From NCBI GenBank assembly GCA_965219385.1, contig CBDCNM010000001.1:980631-1044630 (forward strand): a DNA stretch of 64,000 nucleotides, in the 5' to 3' direction. Below are positions 12,001 through 18,000 of the stretch, in pieces (the first letter of the stretch is position 1; each line of letters begins with the position of its first letter). A program made the position numbers. This DNA is from Candidatus Latescibacterota bacterium (GTDB taxonomy: Bacteria > Latescibacterota > UBA2968 > UBA8231).

Positions 12001-15000
12001 GGATAAAATCTTTGTAATTAAATGGGTTGACAGGCAAAGCTTCTCTTGAAGGTCTAGCAGGTTTATTTATGTTGTTATGTTTTTGTTTAAGATAGTGTTG
12101 GGGGTTGGGTGTGTCAATTGGTTTATTTACATAAAAATTATTATACGGCTTTGTTATTCGATCTGAACCCGCACGGCCCCGCTTTTGAAAATTCAGGTTA
12201 AAATAAGGCATAAATAAAAGGCGCGGCCGCCGTGCCCTCGGTGAGAACTATCAACAAGCCGAGCAGGATAAGGGTCGCAAAAATTGGCCCCAACCACCAT
12301 TTCTTACGCACCCTCATAAAATCCCACAACTCCTTAACTATACTAAATTTACTTGGCATCTCTCACCCTCTTTAATCAAGTAAACGGCTCACAGACTCCC
12401 CGTGGTGAATCGCCTTTATGGCCTCCCCTATCATTCGACCGACGGAAACCACTTCAATCTTATCGGTGGGTTTTTCCGCTGGAAGAGGAATGGTATTGGT
12501 GACGACAAAGGTCTCAATCGGAGATGCATCAATACGCTCGAGGGCATTTCCAGCAAAAACTCCATGGGTACAGCCGGCCAAAATACGCCGTACCCCCTTC
12601 TCTTTAAGGAGTTTAACTGCTTCCATCATGGAACCTCCAGTGAGGACTTCATCATCGAAAAGAAGGGCATCCTTCCCTTCTATATCTCCAATAATATTAA
12701 GTATTTCAGCCTGTTCATCATCACCGTGTCGTCTTTTGTCCATAATGGCCAGTGGCAAATCTATCCTGCGGGCGTAAAAACTCGCTTCATCTGCACTTCC
12801 AACATCCGGAGATACCACCACAGCGTTGTTTAAATTCTTGGTTCTCAGGTGATTGCAAAGCAGCCCAGTCGCCCAGAGCTGATCTACTGGGATACGAGAA
12901 AAAGCAGCAATCTGCGGAGAGTGCAAGGTCATAGTCAAGATCCGGTCCGCCCCAGCGGTCTCGAGCAGGTCGGCCATGAGCCGCGCTGATATCGAGATAC
13001 GGGGCTCGTCTTTCTTATCTGAACGCACATAGGGGAAATAGGGCAAAACAGCGGTGATCCGCCGGGCAGATGCATACTTGAGGGCATCGATCAGGAGCAA
13101 AAGCTCGATGAAATGGTCATTTACCGGGGAACTGGAAGTCTGCACCACAAACACATCGTCTTCGCGGACATTTTCCCGAACCTTGACTTTGATATTATCG
13201 TTGGGACTTCGCTCTATGCTCTGGCGCCCTGGCTGGATATCAAGGTATTCACAGATTTCGTAGACAAGCCCGGAATTGCTTGTACCGGCCATGACCTTTA
13301 GATAATTCTTCATTTCGGCAATTCCCAACCTTAAATTTCAAAAACGCCGTGAGGACATACCCAGAAGCCTGCGATCACCTTGTGCTGCTCCCTCCAATCT
13401 TCCCGGGGGTTGTCCTAATATCTTGACAAGACGAGAACCCTATGCTAATTTGCCGCTCTGTACGGTTCGGGTAATGCCCTGGAGAAGATAACCAACCATG
13501 CCGCGCGTGAATATAATGCTGCCCGAGAACCTTTTAAACCAGATGGACCAAGTAGCCGCTGCGGAGGACATGAATCGCAGTCAGCTGGTGCGCACCGCCG
13601 TACTCGCCTATTTCGACCGGCTTGCTGAAACCAATCAGCGCCAGCAACGCCAGAATGATATCCTGAGAGCCATGGATATTCAGGACCACCTGCGACAGAC
13701 CCATGCGCCCTGGGATGCGCTTAAAATACTACGAGACCAGCGAGAAGAAGCATGATTCGGTATGCCCTTGACACATCGGTTATGCTCCGCTGGTTTACCC
13801 CGGCCCACGATCCGGATACGGAACGGGCCCTGCGTCTGCGGGCCGAACACCTGAATGAGACGGTAGAATTGGTGGTCCTGGATCAATCCATCTTTGAGCT
13901 TATTCACGTGCTCAAAGAAAGCACCCAATTCAACCAGGAGAGCATTGCCGATACCCTTGATAGCCTGGAATTCATGCATATCCACATCATTTCTTACAGC
14001 CACGAAATCGCCAGGAAGGCAGGACAAATCGCCTGTGAATACAATATCGGCATTTATGCGGCTTGTTTTGTCGCTCTCGGAGCCCACCTGCGCTGCCAGG
14101 CTGTCACCAGCGACGAGGAATTGTACCGGAAGGTCTCCTCTCTGCCCTGGACGATCCTCCTGACCCACCTGAATTTCTAGACCCTAAATCCGCTTCAACG
14201 CCTGCTCGATATCGGCCACCAACTCATCGGCATCCTCGATACCCACTGAGTAGCGCACCAATTCGTCCTTGATTCCAATGGCCAGGCGGTCCTCCCGACT
14301 CAAATCGTAGTATGAAACCGATGCCGGATGGGACACCAGGCTTTCAACGCCCCCCAGGCTGGGGGCGATATAGGGAATCTTCAAAGCGTGGATGAAACCG
14401 CGCGTACGGGCGAGATCCCCATCAACATCAAAGCTTACCACCCCACCAAACCCCCTCATCTGCTGGACCGCGATATGGTGGTCGCCATGACTTTCAAGCC
14501 CAGGATAGTATACCTGCTTGATCTTATCCTGGCCCTCCAGATAATGGGCAATGTGTTGTGCCGTTTTGTTCTGGTGCCCAACCCGCAGGGCCAGGGTCTT
14601 CAAACCCCGGATAAGCAGATACGCCGTATTGGGATCCACCACTCCTCCCATCACTTTCTGAAAATCCTTGATGGCTGCTACCAGAGGGGCAGATCCACAG
14701 ATACAACCCGCCATGAGATCATTGTGACCTCCCAGGTATTTGGTGGCGCTGTGGATGACGAGATCCACATTGTACTCGAGAGGCCGCTGGTTTATGGGCG
14801 TGGCAAAGGTGCTGTCGATTAAAACCTTGAGTCTGTGTTCTCGGGCAAACGGCACGAGCCGTTCCAGATCAACTACGTGGAGATGAGGATTGGTCGGCGA
14901 CTCGGTGAAAATAATTCGGGTATTGGGCTGGATTGCGGCTTTTAGGGCATCAAAATCTCCCGGTTTCACAAAGCTACTCTCGATGCCGAATTTTTTGACC

Positions 15001-18000
15001 GTATTGCAAAACTGGGTCGTCTTGCGATAGCAATCCTCCGTGATAATCAGGTGCTGCCCACTCCTGAGCATAGCGAGCAAAGCCGTGGTTACAGCACTCA
15101 TTCCGGTGGGAAACAACAGCGCTTTTTCAGCATGCTCCAGAGCTGCAATTTTATCTTCAGCACTTTTCTGGGTGGGGTTCCCATAGCGGCCATACTCGAA
15201 GTGTTGCCGCTCTCCTGCCGTGTACTCTTCGACTTCGTCCAGGTTTTCGAACACGTAGGTAGCAGTCTGAGCAATGGGATTGGTCAGAGATTGGGCAAAT
15301 TTTATCCGCTCTTCTCCGCCGTGTACCGACTCAGTAGAAAGACCGGCAAAGCCCTTATTTTTGTTCATATCAACCCTTTTCCAGCGCTTTGAGGACTGCC
15401 TGCCGGACTTTTTCATACTTTGCATTGACCTCGACGAGCCGGTTCCGATAGTTTGGTTCGACCCCAAATTCAGCAAGCCTATCTTCGTGATACCCAATTT
15501 TATAATCAGAGAACTTCAAACCGTGTGCGGTTGAAACGACCAGTACCTTATCAGTGCTTTTTACCTTTTTCTTTTGGACCAGCTTGAAAAGCGCGGCCAG
15601 AGCCACGCCAGTGTGTGGACAAGTAAAAAGACCCGTCCTATCCGCCCGAGCCGATGCATTGGCCAATTCGTCTTCTGTAGCCTGCTCGACAATGCCATCG
15701 AATTTTTGCAGGGTTCGCACCGCTCGTTCCCGGCTGACAGGATTGCCGATCTGAATCGCCGTAGCAAGCGTGGCACGGGCTTTTTGTACCTTAAAAGTTT
15801 GAAAATTATCCAGATAACTTAAATACAGGGGGTTGGCATGGGCCGCCTGGGCAACGGCAATACGCGGCAGGCGATCAATGATCCCCATTTCCTTCATTTC
15901 CAAGAACCCCTTACCTAGAGCACTCACATTACCCAAATTCCCCCCGGGAATCACGACCCAATCCGGAACGGACCAATCATCCTGCTGGACTAGTTCTATG
16001 GCTACGGTTTTCTGCCCCTCGATCCGCAGAGAATTCATCGAATTGGCCAGGTAAATATTCTCCTTATGACATATTTCCTTCATCAACTCCATACACCCAT
16101 CAAAATCCGTATCCAGATACAAGGTCAGGGCGCCATTGGCAATGGGCTGGATGAGCTGGGCGGGGGAGATTTTGTCCCTGGGCAAAAATACAAACACCGG
16201 TATTCCGGCAGCCGCACCGTAGGCTGCCAGTGCCGCCGAAGTGTCCCCGGTCGAAGCACAGGCTACAGCAGGGATGTTCTGACCTTCGGCGATCATTTGT
16301 TTAACCATCGAGACCAAAACGGTCATGCCCAGGTCCTTGAAAGACCCAGTATGACTGTTGCCACATTGCTTGACCCACAGGTCTTCCACCCCGATCTCCC
16401 TGCCGAGGCGTTCGGCCTTGAAAAGATTGCTGCCCCCCTCATACATAGAGACCACATTCGCGTCTTCCACCACAGGACAGACCATCTCCTTTTTGCCCCA
16501 GACCGAACTGCCATAAGGCACCTCGGTGCGCATATAGCGTTGGTCAAAAAGCTTCATCCAGGCATAAGCCGACTTTCGCTTCAATGCATCCATATCGTGG
16601 CGCACTTCAAGCAAACCGCCACAATTTTTACACTCGTACACAATCTCAGTCAGCGGGTACCGCTCACCTCGACAGTGCAGGCATTGAAACCAGGCTCGGT
16701 AGGCCATATATCTTTTCTCGGGTAGACGGGCTAATTCAATATACGGCGTAATAATAACTGCAGCAACAGAATATCCACGACTGTCTCAGGAAATATATAG
16801 CTTGCATTGTAGAACAGCGAATAGAGCCAGACAGGTTGTCCCTGCGGAGCCATTTGCCCCCAAAATACAATCCCGGAAATAAAATGTGCGAGAAAACGCA
16901 GGGTGTTCCCCAGGAGGACTCCGGTTATAATCTGTACTGGAAGGGCATAGGGAGCAGCTCTGGCAGCAGTTGTCCGCGGGAAACCCAGCCCTGCCATTCC
17001 GGCAAGGCCAAAAGCTATTGGGTAATCTAAAGGGAACTGGATGGGATGAATCCAATGAGGTTCAGAGATAAAATGCACCATCCCATAAACCCCACCTGCA
17101 GCTACGCCCCCTTTCCACCCATGCCTGAATGCCACAACAAAAATCGGCAGCATGTGCAGACTGATTGAGCCACCATAGGGCAAGCGAGGTACAGGCAGGA
17201 TTTTTGAAAACCCATCGAGAAGTATGGCAAGTGCTATCGCCAATGCTATTTCGCTATAAAGCCGAATATTCATAAATCAGCCAAAAAGACAATTTTGACT
17301 TTTCTAAACCATTGCTCCACAAGACAAAAAATCATAGAAAATTTAGGAACCCCAGTAGGATTTCGGGCGTTTAATCCAATACGAGCCATCCCGGTCATGG
17401 CTCGTATCCCTCCCTTGCGGCCAGAGGCATTTCGTTTCGCTTCTGGCCGTTTTTATACCTCTAACCTCTTGATTTATAAACTAATTTAGGCGCTGAATTA
17501 TAACTATCCCCATGGGCATTTCAACAATATCGCTTACTTCACCTGTTTGAAGTTGTAAGACCGCTTGCTCAAATGGTTCTAAAAGTTCGCCCGGTCCAAA
17601 AAAACCCAAATCTCCCCCATCCTGGGCATTGGGTGCCTGAGAAAATTGATGAGCCAGCTTGCCAAAATCTTCCCCCTGCTCAAGACGCTGTAGTAAATCC
17701 CTGGCTTCGGCCTGTGTTTTCACAAGAATATAGCGCGCCCTCATCTTGCCATCCATTATAGAGCGAATCGCTTCCATTCTGAGGTTAATGGCGTGGTTTA
17801 TCAGAGGGTCTTGAGCTAGTGTTTTAGCACGGCTGTAGTAATCGAGGGACTGCCTGTATCGGGCCTGCAAAGCGTAGAGGAAAGCTATGTTGTTATAGGC
17901 TTCGACATCATCGGCGAGAACCTCTAGGACCTTGTGATAGTGGTCAACTGCCAGATCCAGCGAATCCTGTTGAGTAAAATAATAGCCCAGGAATCTGTGA

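What a model noticed while it worked through the whole genome (the two positions that open the first line are those of the whole stretch)
14184..16707. Plant-type methionine route: cystathionine gamma-synthase co-transcribed with a plant-type threonine synthase, no MetA/M [...]
The genome has no homoserine acyltransferase (MetA or MetX) but has a cystathionine gamma-synthase closest to the plant enzyme (g00885) directly behind a plant-like threonine synthase (g00886, 1 nt apart). Methionine synthesis most likely branches from O-phosphohomoserine as in plants.
Evidence so far: PF04204 no match in G000; MetX profile matches 12 of 41 family genomes, not G000. g00885 is 51.9% identical to tobacco CGS1, g00886 58% to plant TS; PDB best hit tobacco CGS 1i41 at 420 bits against 302 for methionine gamma-lyases, keeping the residues I recall as the phosphate pocket (E107, K165, S403). 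Orthologues of 55-79% in 38 of 41 family genomes; pair near each other in 54 of 75 order genomes. hom, thrB and split MetH/MetE genes are present.
(Added by a program. Inside this text positions count along the whole contig: contig position 980,631 is position 1 of the stretch shown here. "Call 12" and the like, gene names such as g00115 and contig names such as C1 are that model's own, and its searches are not shown. The text may have been shortened before it was handed on; [...] marks where a part breaks off. The agent that wrote the report below was given it as the finding of a first reader that could run no searches.)

Follow-up and report, generated by a model that had tools for sequence, protein, structure and literature searches.

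The report
Plant-type methionine branch point in bacteria
This bacterium, and many others, appears to start making methionine the way plants do, from the same phosphorylated intermediate used for threonine, with the two competing enzymes side by side and in some bacteria fused into one protein; this is predicted from genomes and not yet tested in the lab.

Summary
Observation confirmed. A plant-type threonine synthase (15370-16707) is followed 1 nt later by a 394-aa enzyme of the plant cystathionine gamma-synthase (CGS) clade (14184-15368; tree support 100/98). The genome (Latescibacterota by homologue names) lacks MetA, MetX, MetY, DUF39 and a MetM orthologue. It has two O-phosphohomoserine (OPHS) sources (ThrB, HomK) and a split methionine synthase.

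New support: the pair is adjacent in 103 of 111 phylum genomes holding both. 41 of 42 single-contig genomes have this CGS and none has an acyltransferase. All 33 acyltransferase-bearing genomes have their own MetY. 14 clade members elsewhere sit behind SAM-I riboswitches. 64 of 75 long hits are TS-CGS fusions.

OPHS use is likely (about 0.85) but unassayed. The sulfur donor is open: cysteine (plant route), or sulfide/thiocarboxylate carrier, since this genome has MoeZ, Mec and a carrier, and two clade loci lie in carrier operons. The plant enzyme's closest bacterial kin here are Myxococcota/Spirochaetota sequences, not this one; the kinship appears in a 2012 supplementary tree. A bacterial CGS route from OPHS was not found in ten literature searches.

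The parts
15370..16707 (-). Plant-type (long, Arabidopsis-like) threonine synthase, 445 aa, with an N-terminal CxxC...CxxC zinc-ribbon-like motif
   Evidence: TIGR00260 221 bits, over cut-off 167; PDB 1e5x 525.6 bits against 183.5 next; cysteine motif kept in bacterial orthologues, absent in 3 plant/algal rows
14184..15368 (-). Plant-clade cystathionine gamma-synthase-like PLP enzyme, 394 aa (P0001); predicted to replace the phosphate of O-phosphohomoserine with a thiol
   Evidence: PF01053 456.8 bits; no NCBIfam model over its cut-off among the best 25 of 54 shown; PDB 1i41 420 bits; clade with plant and algal CGS 100/98; signature EYGRY / DCYRKT / HPASVSYY
15369..15378 (-). Junction: TS stop TGA, 1 nt, CGS ATG; purine-rich run just upstream inside TS (possible translational coupling, inferred)
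   Evidence: no indel in 3 runs
16731..17273 (-). ECF thiamine transporter S component ThiT, 23 nt upstream of TS; probably first gene of the same transcription unit, not part of the pathway
   Evidence: TIGR02357 152 bits, over cut-off 108; spacing
17497..17524 (-). Sigma-70-like site TTGAAA-16-TATAAT upstream of thiT (candidate promoter only)
   Evidence: 11 of 12 matches, but 5 sites found against 3.9 +/- 1.8 in shuffles: not above chance
13498..14180 (+). Convergent RHH antitoxin plus PIN-domain gene pair that bounds the unit downstream (3 nt from the CGS stop)
   Evidence: PF07878/PF01402 and PF01850

Best explanation
Aspartate is converted to homoserine (lysC, asd, hom) and phosphorylated by ThrB or HomK to O-phosphohomoserine (OPHS). 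OPHS is the Thr/Met branch point. The plant-type TS turns it into threonine. The neighbouring plant-clade CGS carries out PLP-dependent gamma-replacement of the phosphate, so no homoserine acyltransferase is needed. Most likely the incoming thiol is cysteine, giving cystathionine, which the genome's only other Cys/Met PLP enzyme (C1:132185-133342) or the CGS itself cleaves to homocysteine; a split B12 methionine synthase or an MetE-core enzyme methylates it. Shown: genes, order, clade, presence and absence of families. Inferred: substrate (OPHS about 0.85), cysteine as sulfur donor (about 0.6 given OPHS), identity of the beta-lyase, co-transcription.
For: Clade: window enzyme, green-plant, green-algal, red-algal (Cyanidiococcus) and cryptophyte (Hemiselmis) CGS fall in one clade (IQ-TREE 100/98, 31 of 39 rows; names). 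Signature [ED]107, [RK]164, [RK]165, [ST]403 in 123 of 154 clade rows and 0 of 121 others. No alternative in G000: no MetA, MetX, MetY, DUF39; best match to a MetM-type protein 34%. OPHS sources: ThrB over cut-off and HomK TIGR02535 493.8 over 446.3 in a hom-homK-lysC cluster. Phylum (140 genomes; tally): CGS orthologue 121; TS and CGS adjacent in 103 of 111; 98 of 121 have no acyltransferase; 41 of 42 single-contig genomes have CGS, none of the 42 has MetA/MetX/MetY, and the one without CGS (G007) has MetM; 13 of 19 genomes without CGS have acyltransferase+MetY or MetM. Other phyla: same TS-then-CGS order in 29 of 80 loci, 20 outside Latescibacterota; SAM-I riboswitch (78-92 bits, cut-off 44) directly upstream in 14 loci; neighbours lysC, hom, metF, metK; 25 of 50 genomes have no full MetX, MetA or MetM-like gene, including Nannocystis sp. 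RBIL2, which has ThrB and MetH; ThrB in 20 of 32 genomes without and 2 of 18 with an acyltransferase (kin not independent). TS-CGS fusions: 64 of 75 long TS hits, both PLP motifs intact, named ones Nitrospirota.
Against: No assay. The phosphate-pocket role of the residues is recalled: a paper search for them found 0 and the fold model is too poor to test it (pLDDT 68.7). 23 of 121 phylum genomes with this CGS also have an acyltransferase. Outside the phylum 18 of 50 do, mostly without canonical ThrB (HomK not searched there), so some clade members may use acyl-homoserine; Arabidopsis CGS complements E. coli metB (PMC8428831, passages). The 4 family-f10 enzymes examined, from MetX+MetY-bearing genomes or their family, have G at R164. 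8 of 50 outside genomes hold a MetM-like gene as well. No cystathionine beta-lyase is identified: the second paralogue passes no NCBIfam cut-off shown, PatB is under cut-off, and 4 of 41 single-contig genomes have no second family member at E<=1e-60. No SAM riboswitch in the window. The methionine synthase pieces are all under full-length cut-offs. G000 is 94% complete.
Confidence: 0.55

Rival explanations
1. Same OPHS branch point, different sulfur donor: the enzyme makes homocysteine directly, from OPHS plus sulfide or plus a thiocarboxylated sulfur-carrier protein (MoeZ charges the carrier, Mec releases the product). It would do MetM's job with a CGS fold and need no beta-lyase.
For: G000 has cysM-mec-carrier(..AGGR)-cysK at C1:785904-788743 (carrier 47% to the MetO-type protein), a MoeB/ThiF-like gene at C1:659076-660263 and a sulfite-reductase-like gene. 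L068 (Anaerolineae) reads SAM riboswitch-CGS-JAB-ThiS-ThiF, the MetM helper set with CGS in MetM's place; L101 reads PAPS reductase-sulfite reductase-JAB-ThiS-CGS; P0121 is a ThiS-CGS fusion. In G006 MetM sits at the head of a cysM-mec cluster. 4 single-contig genomes lack a second Cys/Met PLP enzyme. From recall, not from a call: Wolinella MetY, of the same fold, uses a thiocarboxylate carrier.
Against: Carrier genes lie next to the CGS in only 2 of 80 loci and the carrier fusion is a single sequence. In G000 the carrier cluster is next to cysteine synthases and about 206 kb from the CGS, and is explained by cysteine synthesis. The second paralogue is kept in 92 of 140 phylum genomes.
Confidence: 0.28
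2. The enzyme is a CGS, but its in vivo substrate is an acyl-homoserine made by a missed or unrelated acyltransferase; the link to TS reflects general aspartate-family clustering.
For: 18 of 50 outside genomes and 23 of 121 phylum genomes with the clade gene have MetA/MetX; plant CGS works in E. coli delta-metB (PMC8428831, passages); G000 is 94% complete.
Against: 0 of 42 single-contig genomes have MetA/MetX; all 33 acyltransferase genomes have MetY, often adjacent; no acyltransferase among the 69 neighbour proteins scanned, which came from part of the 80 loci.
Confidence: 0.08
3. Methionine comes from a MetM-type ThrC paralogue or from uptake, and the window enzyme is a catabolic or reverse-transsulfuration lyase (methionine or cystathionine gamma-lyase).
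For: G000 has three more ThrC-like genes and a carrier system; the highest NCBIfam scores of the window enzyme include methionine gamma-lyase models, under cut-off.
Against: The ThrC-likes are 27-34% identical to the MetM-type reference, whereas MetM orthologues score 51-54% and occur in only 4 of 140 phylum genomes, all lacking this CGS. None of the three lies next to a carrier. The window enzyme lacks the YG[CG]T motif of the lyases. SAM-I riboswitches upstream of 14 orthologues fit biosynthesis.
Confidence: 0.09

Closest known systems
Plant cystathionine gamma-synthase (tobacco CGS1, PDB 1qgn/1i41; OPHS + cysteine)
   Same: Same clade, 52% identity, K261, Y163, R423 (roles in PMC8428831, passages) and E107/R164/K165/S403 matched; partner TS of plant type; no acyltransferase in the genome.
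   Different: Bacterial, no N-terminal transit or regulatory extension (394 against 540 aa); encoded in an operon with, or fused to, TS; SAM-I riboswitch control in Chloroflexota; sulfur donor unproven; window enzyme is not the sister of the plant enzymes.
Streptomyces MetM/MetO/Mec/MoeZ route (Hasebe et al. 2024; paper not held, seen only through GapMind 2026 and PMC12172450 passages)
   Same: Bacterial homocysteine from OPHS without MetA/MetX; G000 has the helper-type genes.
   Different: MetM is a ThrC-fold enzyme; G000 has no MetM orthologue (34%); here the candidate is a Cys/Met-metabolism (PF01053) enzyme.
E. coli MetB (O-succinylhomoserine) and MetY/MetZ sulfhydrylases
   Same: Same fold and gamma-replacement chemistry.
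   Different: 37% identity to MetB; MetB has G102/G103 where the clade has basic residues; TIGR02080, TIGR01325 and TIGR01326 all under cut-off; they need MetA/MetX.
Bacterial homologues in Reyes-Prieto and Moustafa 2012 (PMC3518814) Fig. S78
   Same: The tree labels list Plesiocystis, Haliangium, Sorangium, Oscillochloris, Chloroflexus, three Planctomycetes and Desulfococcus directly before the red-algal and green-plant CGS; Table 1 scores CGS as non-cyanobacterial (100).
   Different: In the passages and figure text I saw there is no statement on the bacterial enzymes' substrate, missing acyltransferases, operon, fusion or riboswitch.

Membership tests
Plant-type CGS (OPHS-dependent) | Falls in one clade with plant and algal CGS | tested here: met
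   FastTree 0.987, IQ-TREE SH-aLRT 98, careful 100/98
Plant-type CGS (OPHS-dependent) | PLP lysine and catalytic Tyr/Arg (K261, Y163, R423 tobacco numbering) | tested here: met
   roles from PMC8428831 passages
Plant-type CGS (OPHS-dependent) | Clade-specific acidic and basic pocket residues (E107, R164/K165, S403) | tested here: inconclusive
   Present and clade-specific (123 of 154 against 0 of 121), but their role in binding phosphate is recalled; search found 0 papers; model too weak
Plant-type CGS (OPHS-dependent) | Uses OPHS plus cysteine to form cystathionine | not testable with these tools
   needs an assay
Plant-type CGS (OPHS-dependent) | N-terminal regulatory extension of the plant enzyme | tested here: not met
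   394 aa against 540 aa for P0192; match begins after the extension. Not needed for catalysis (recalled); so the claim is clade membership and mode of action, not a plant regulatory CGS
Plant-type methionine pathway | OPHS source present and no homoserine acyltransferase | tested here: met
Plant-type methionine pathway | Cystathionine beta-lyase | tested here: inconclusive
   one unassigned PF01053 paralogue; PatB under cut-off
Plant-type methionine pathway | Methionine synthase | tested here: inconclusive
   three-part MetH-like cluster C2:4462835-4469180 and 4 PF01717 matches, all under full-length NCBIfam cut-offs
Plant-type threonine synthase | ThrC family, Arabidopsis-like subtype | tested here: met
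   TIGR00260 over cut-off; 525.6 against 183.5 bits
Plant-type threonine synthase | Allosteric activation by SAM | tested here: inconclusive
   the PYG, SxxEG and NL stretches that I recall as the SAM site are kept; residue roles recalled, activation untestable here
MetM/MetO thiocarboxylate route | MetM orthologue next to a sulfur carrier | tested here: not met
   best 34% against 51-54% for orthologues; reference L142 was taken as MetM from its context (SAM riboswitch, ThrC-like gene, carrier), not by comparison with the S. albulus sequence
MetM/MetO thiocarboxylate route | Carrier, Mec, MoeZ helpers | tested here: met
MetB / MetY / MetZ / methionine gamma-lyase equivalogs | NCBIfam curated cut-off | tested here: not met
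   TIGR02080 326/504, TIGR01326 311/495, TIGR01325 339/510, TIGR01328 379/550

The most novel reading that the evidence does not exclude
The 'plant' methionine route is an old bacterial pathway used across about ten phyla. One CGS clade takes O-phosphohomoserine directly. Bacteria wire the Thr/Met branch point as an operon, as a single TS-CGS bifunctional polypeptide (Nitrospirota) or under a SAM riboswitch (Chloroflexota). In some lineages the enzyme is coupled to a thiocarboxylate sulfur carrier instead of cysteine. Archaeplastida took the enzyme from within this bacterial clade.
Probability: 0.5. Interest if true: 0.8.

Novelty: new variant of a known kind. Interest (0 to 1): 0.68.

Why it matters
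Papers seen here still assign OPHS-dependent methionine synthesis to plants (CGS) and to Streptomyces (MetM) (bioRxiv 10.64898/2026.09.15.751699, passage; GapMind 2026, passages). If this holds, it removes an apparent MetA/MetX gap and false methionine auxotrophy for many uncultured bacteria (98 of 121 phylum genomes with the gene; 25 of 50 sampled elsewhere). It gives the plant Thr/Met branch point a bacterial origin with a natural fusion to study competition for OPHS. It also offers acyl-CoA-independent enzymes for methionine engineering. One complementation experiment decides it, and cultured carriers exist.

Tried and rejected
Expression: no RNA holder listed, so co-transcription is untested; DNA contigs only confirmed the sequence. 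Structure: AlphaFold2 model from 32 sequences had mean pLDDT 68.7 with the pocket loops under 50; Foldseek ranked 1qgn and 1i41 first but adds nothing beyond sequence. Promoter and terminator scan not above shuffles. Rfam on the window found only a group II intron piece and a tRNA; my riboswitch pattern found no site in G000. Plasmid collection holds no clade member among the 40 of 431 records listed, best 42%. A frameshifted fusion in the window was rejected: stop codon plus 1 nt, no indel in 3 runs. MetM in G000 rejected. Strict mutual exclusion of MetM and this CGS holds in the phylum but fails outside (8 of 50). Earlier scan findings were not available. Hasebe 2024 and Ferla and Patrick 2014 are not held, so a mention in those or other closed papers cannot be excluded; bioRxiv supplements and those of the Nov 2026 GapMind paper were not seen. 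GapMind 2020 supplements gave nothing on this route in the places shown. No complex prediction was sent, since binding is not claimed. Fisher tests overstate because kin are not independent, so counts are given instead.
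Full report
Observation. The window holds, on the minus strand, thiT (16731-17273), a 445-aa threonine synthase (15370-16707) and, 1 nt after its stop, a 394-aa Cys/Met-metabolism PLP enzyme (14184-15368). The junction has no indel in contigs of three public runs, which may be the DNA's source. The best solved relatives are plant enzymes by wide margins: tobacco CGS 420 against 302 bits and Arabidopsis TS 526 against 184 bits. Named homologues are Latescibacterota, Handelsmanbacteria and Gemmatimonadota. Co-transcription is inferred from spacing; no RNA run is listed.

Clade. I aligned 275 sequences: the window enzyme, 9 close homologues, loci from genome contigs, plant and algal proteins, TS-CGS fusion halves, full-length 50%-cluster representatives, and named outgroups including E. 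coli MetB and MetC (rows matching under 320 query residues were dropped). The window enzyme and tobacco CGS share a clade of 154 rows (0.987). Reduced IQ-TREE runs give SH-aLRT 98 (72 rows) and 100/98 (39 rows). Eukaryotic members form one group (100/100) of land plants, green algae, the red alga Cyanidiococcus and the cryptophyte Hemiselmis. Its sister is three Myxococcota/Spirochaetota sequences (93/95, not starred; no AU test). So the window enzyme belongs to the plant clade but is not its closest bacterial kin. A four-position signature ([ED]107, [RK]164, [RK]165, [ST]403, tobacco numbering) is in 123 of 154 clade rows and 0 of 121 others; the basic pair replaces the GG of MetB and the lyases. 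That these residues hold the phosphate is recalled, not shown: the search found 0 papers and the model was weak.

Genome inventory (G000, 94% complete). Absent: PF04204, TIGR01392, any tblastn hit to relatives' MetA/MetX, MetY, DUF39. Only two full-length PF01053 genes exist. Present: thrB; hom-homK-lysC cluster; a three-part MetH-like cluster with a MetF-like neighbour read from its sequence, and four MetE-core matches. Because the genome also has three further ThrC-like genes and a cysM-mec-carrier-cysK cluster, I tested the MetM route. A Nonomuraea locus with SAM riboswitch, ThrC-like gene and carrier served as MetM-type reference. G000's best match is 34%; orthologues at 51-54% occur in 4 of 140 phylum genomes, all without this CGS.

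Phylum profile (140 genomes at least 85% complete; tally). CGS orthologue (51% identity or more, three contig-end fragments included, 41-45% hits excluded): 121. Plant-type TS: 114. Adjacent on one strand within 683 nt: 103 of 111. MetX: 26 (2 weak matches near 149 bits set apart); MetA: 7; MetY: 35. All 33 acyltransferase genomes have MetY, so the relatives' MetX is accounted for by a separate direct route. 98 of 121 CGS genomes have no acyltransferase. Of 42 single-contig genomes, 41 have the CGS, none has MetA/MetX/MetY, and the remaining one has MetM. Of 19 genomes without the CGS, 13 have acyltransferase+MetY or MetM. G079 keeps TS, lacks the CGS beside it, and has MetA and MetY. Against: 23 of 121 have both routes, and four family-f10 enzymes have G at position 164. 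Kin are not independent.

Other phyla. The best 80 of at least 589 related loci come from Latescibacterota, Methylomirabilota, Binatia and other deltaproteobacteria, Myxococcota, Chloroflexota, Planctomycetota, Fibrobacterota, Tectomicrobia, Bacteroidota and others. TS precedes the CGS in 29 of 80, 20 of them outside Latescibacterota. A pattern flagged 14 of 80 loci; Rfam on 23 of the 80 confirmed a SAM-I riboswitch directly upstream in those 14, 13 of them Chloroflexota by title. Neighbours include aspartate kinase, homoserine dehydrogenase, MetF and MetK (69 proteins scanned). In 50 of the 70 non-Latescibacterota-block genomes searched: full MetX 13 (one partial at a contig end; weak matches of 250 bits or less otherwise not counted), MetA 5, MetY 16, MetM-like 8, none of MetX/MetA/MetM 25. 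ThrB is in 20 of 32 genomes without and 2 of 18 with an acyltransferase. This fits OPHS use where no acyltransferase exists, and leaves open that members in acyltransferase-bearing genomes use acyl-homoserine; HomK was not searched there. Nannocystis sp. RBIL2 has the CGS, ThrB and MetH and none of MetA, MetX, MetY or MetM.

Fusions. Searches among longer proteins found about 848-aa TS-CGS fusions (12 of the best 120; 64 of 75, both PLP motifs present in all 64). They come from many assemblies, and the named ones are Nitrospirota. Some clusters also hold separate 402-aa CGS members, so the fusion is labile or has an internal start. P0518 may be an independent fusion (single sequence). Two enzymes that compete for one substrate in plants being fused in bacteria is best explained by a shared substrate (inference).

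Sulfur donor. The plant route needs cysteine and a beta-lyase. G000's second paralogue is unassigned, kept in 92 of 140 genomes, and missing from 4 single-contig genomes. L068 reads SAM riboswitch-CGS-JAB-ThiS-ThiF, L101 reads PAPS reductase-sulfite reductase-JAB-ThiS-CGS, and P0121 fuses ThiS to the CGS. G000 has MoeB-like, Mec and carrier genes. So direct homocysteine formation from sulfide or a thiocarboxylate carrier is a real rival, at least in some lineages.

Literature (10 searches). GapMind 2026 (bioRxiv and PMC13759103; passages) lists only the MetM route for OPHS in bacteria. bioRxiv 10.64898/2026.09.15.751699 (passages) names plants and Streptomyces. PMC12172450 (passages) describes MetM context. 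PMC3518814 (passages and supplement part 52, figure labels as text) shows the bacterial-plant kinship without function. PMC8428831, PMC4523565, PMC11350084, PMC6284425, PMC8191291, PMC3169418 and GapMind 2019/2020 were seen as passages only. Hasebe 2024 and Ferla and Patrick 2014 were not available. From recall and unverified: a Sulfolobus CGS may have been assayed with OPHS, which would be an archaeal precedent. I found no report of a bacterial OPHS-dependent CGS route, of the operon or of the fusion.

Verdict. Real, conserved and well supported by four independent kinds of context. OPHS-dependent methionine synthesis by this enzyme about 0.85 (cysteine route 0.55, direct or carrier route 0.28). 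New variant of a known kind; interest 0.68.

Noticed in passing
P0167, P0252 (NWF75752.1) and 62 more: Natural threonine synthase-CGS fusion proteins of about 848 aa, named ones from Nitrospirota, annotated only as threonine synthase.
   Followed up: partly
L068:186-3623; L101:5600-9203; P0121: Plant-clade CGS in operons with JAB peptidase, ThiS-type carrier and ThiF or sulfite reductase, and one ThiS-CGS fusion; hints at a thiocarboxylate sulfur donor.
   Followed up: partly
P0520, P0523, P0524: Fusions of a GHMP kinase (homoserine-kinase-like) with a threonine synthase, about 795 aa.
   Followed up: no
G000:C2:4383668-4388500 and C1:461064-462038: Two non-homologous homoserine phosphorylating enzymes in one genome: HomK (TIGR02535) in a hom-homK-lysC cluster, and a lone ThrB.
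   Followed up: partly
L144 (G006:C8:1593387-1597580): MetM-type gene at the head of a cysM-mec cluster in a family that lacks the plant-type CGS.
   Followed up: partly
L162-L165 (family f10): Clade members with DAYG[RK]T in place of DCYR[RK]T, in a family with MetX+MetY and no plant-type TS; possible substrate switch.
   Followed up: no
window 8486-9424 and 12372-13328 (-): Two ribose-phosphate pyrophosphokinase-like genes 3 kb apart, judged from the translations; the same doubling is seen in G079 (L166).
   Followed up: no
window 9512-10710 (+): Two overlapping ORFs that read like an IS3-family transposase, between the two prs-like genes.
   Followed up: no
window 13498-14180 (+): RHH antitoxin plus PIN-domain toxin-like pair converging on the CGS gene.
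   Followed up: partly
window 18516-19726 (-): Class II aldolase (PF00596) behind a 93-aa gene that reads like a bacterial microcompartment shell protein.
   Followed up: no
window 39098-39174 (-) and 62303-62387 (+): Group II intron domain match (RF00029, 68.5 bits) and a tRNA.
   Followed up: no
G000:C1:133500-136500: Repeated translated motifs typical of a CRISPR array directly downstream of the second Cys/Met PLP gene.
   Followed up: no
G000:C2:4462552-4469180 (-): Three-part methionine-synthase-like cluster (S-methyltransferase, pterin-binding, corrinoid proteins) with a MetF-like gene between them.
   Followed up: partly
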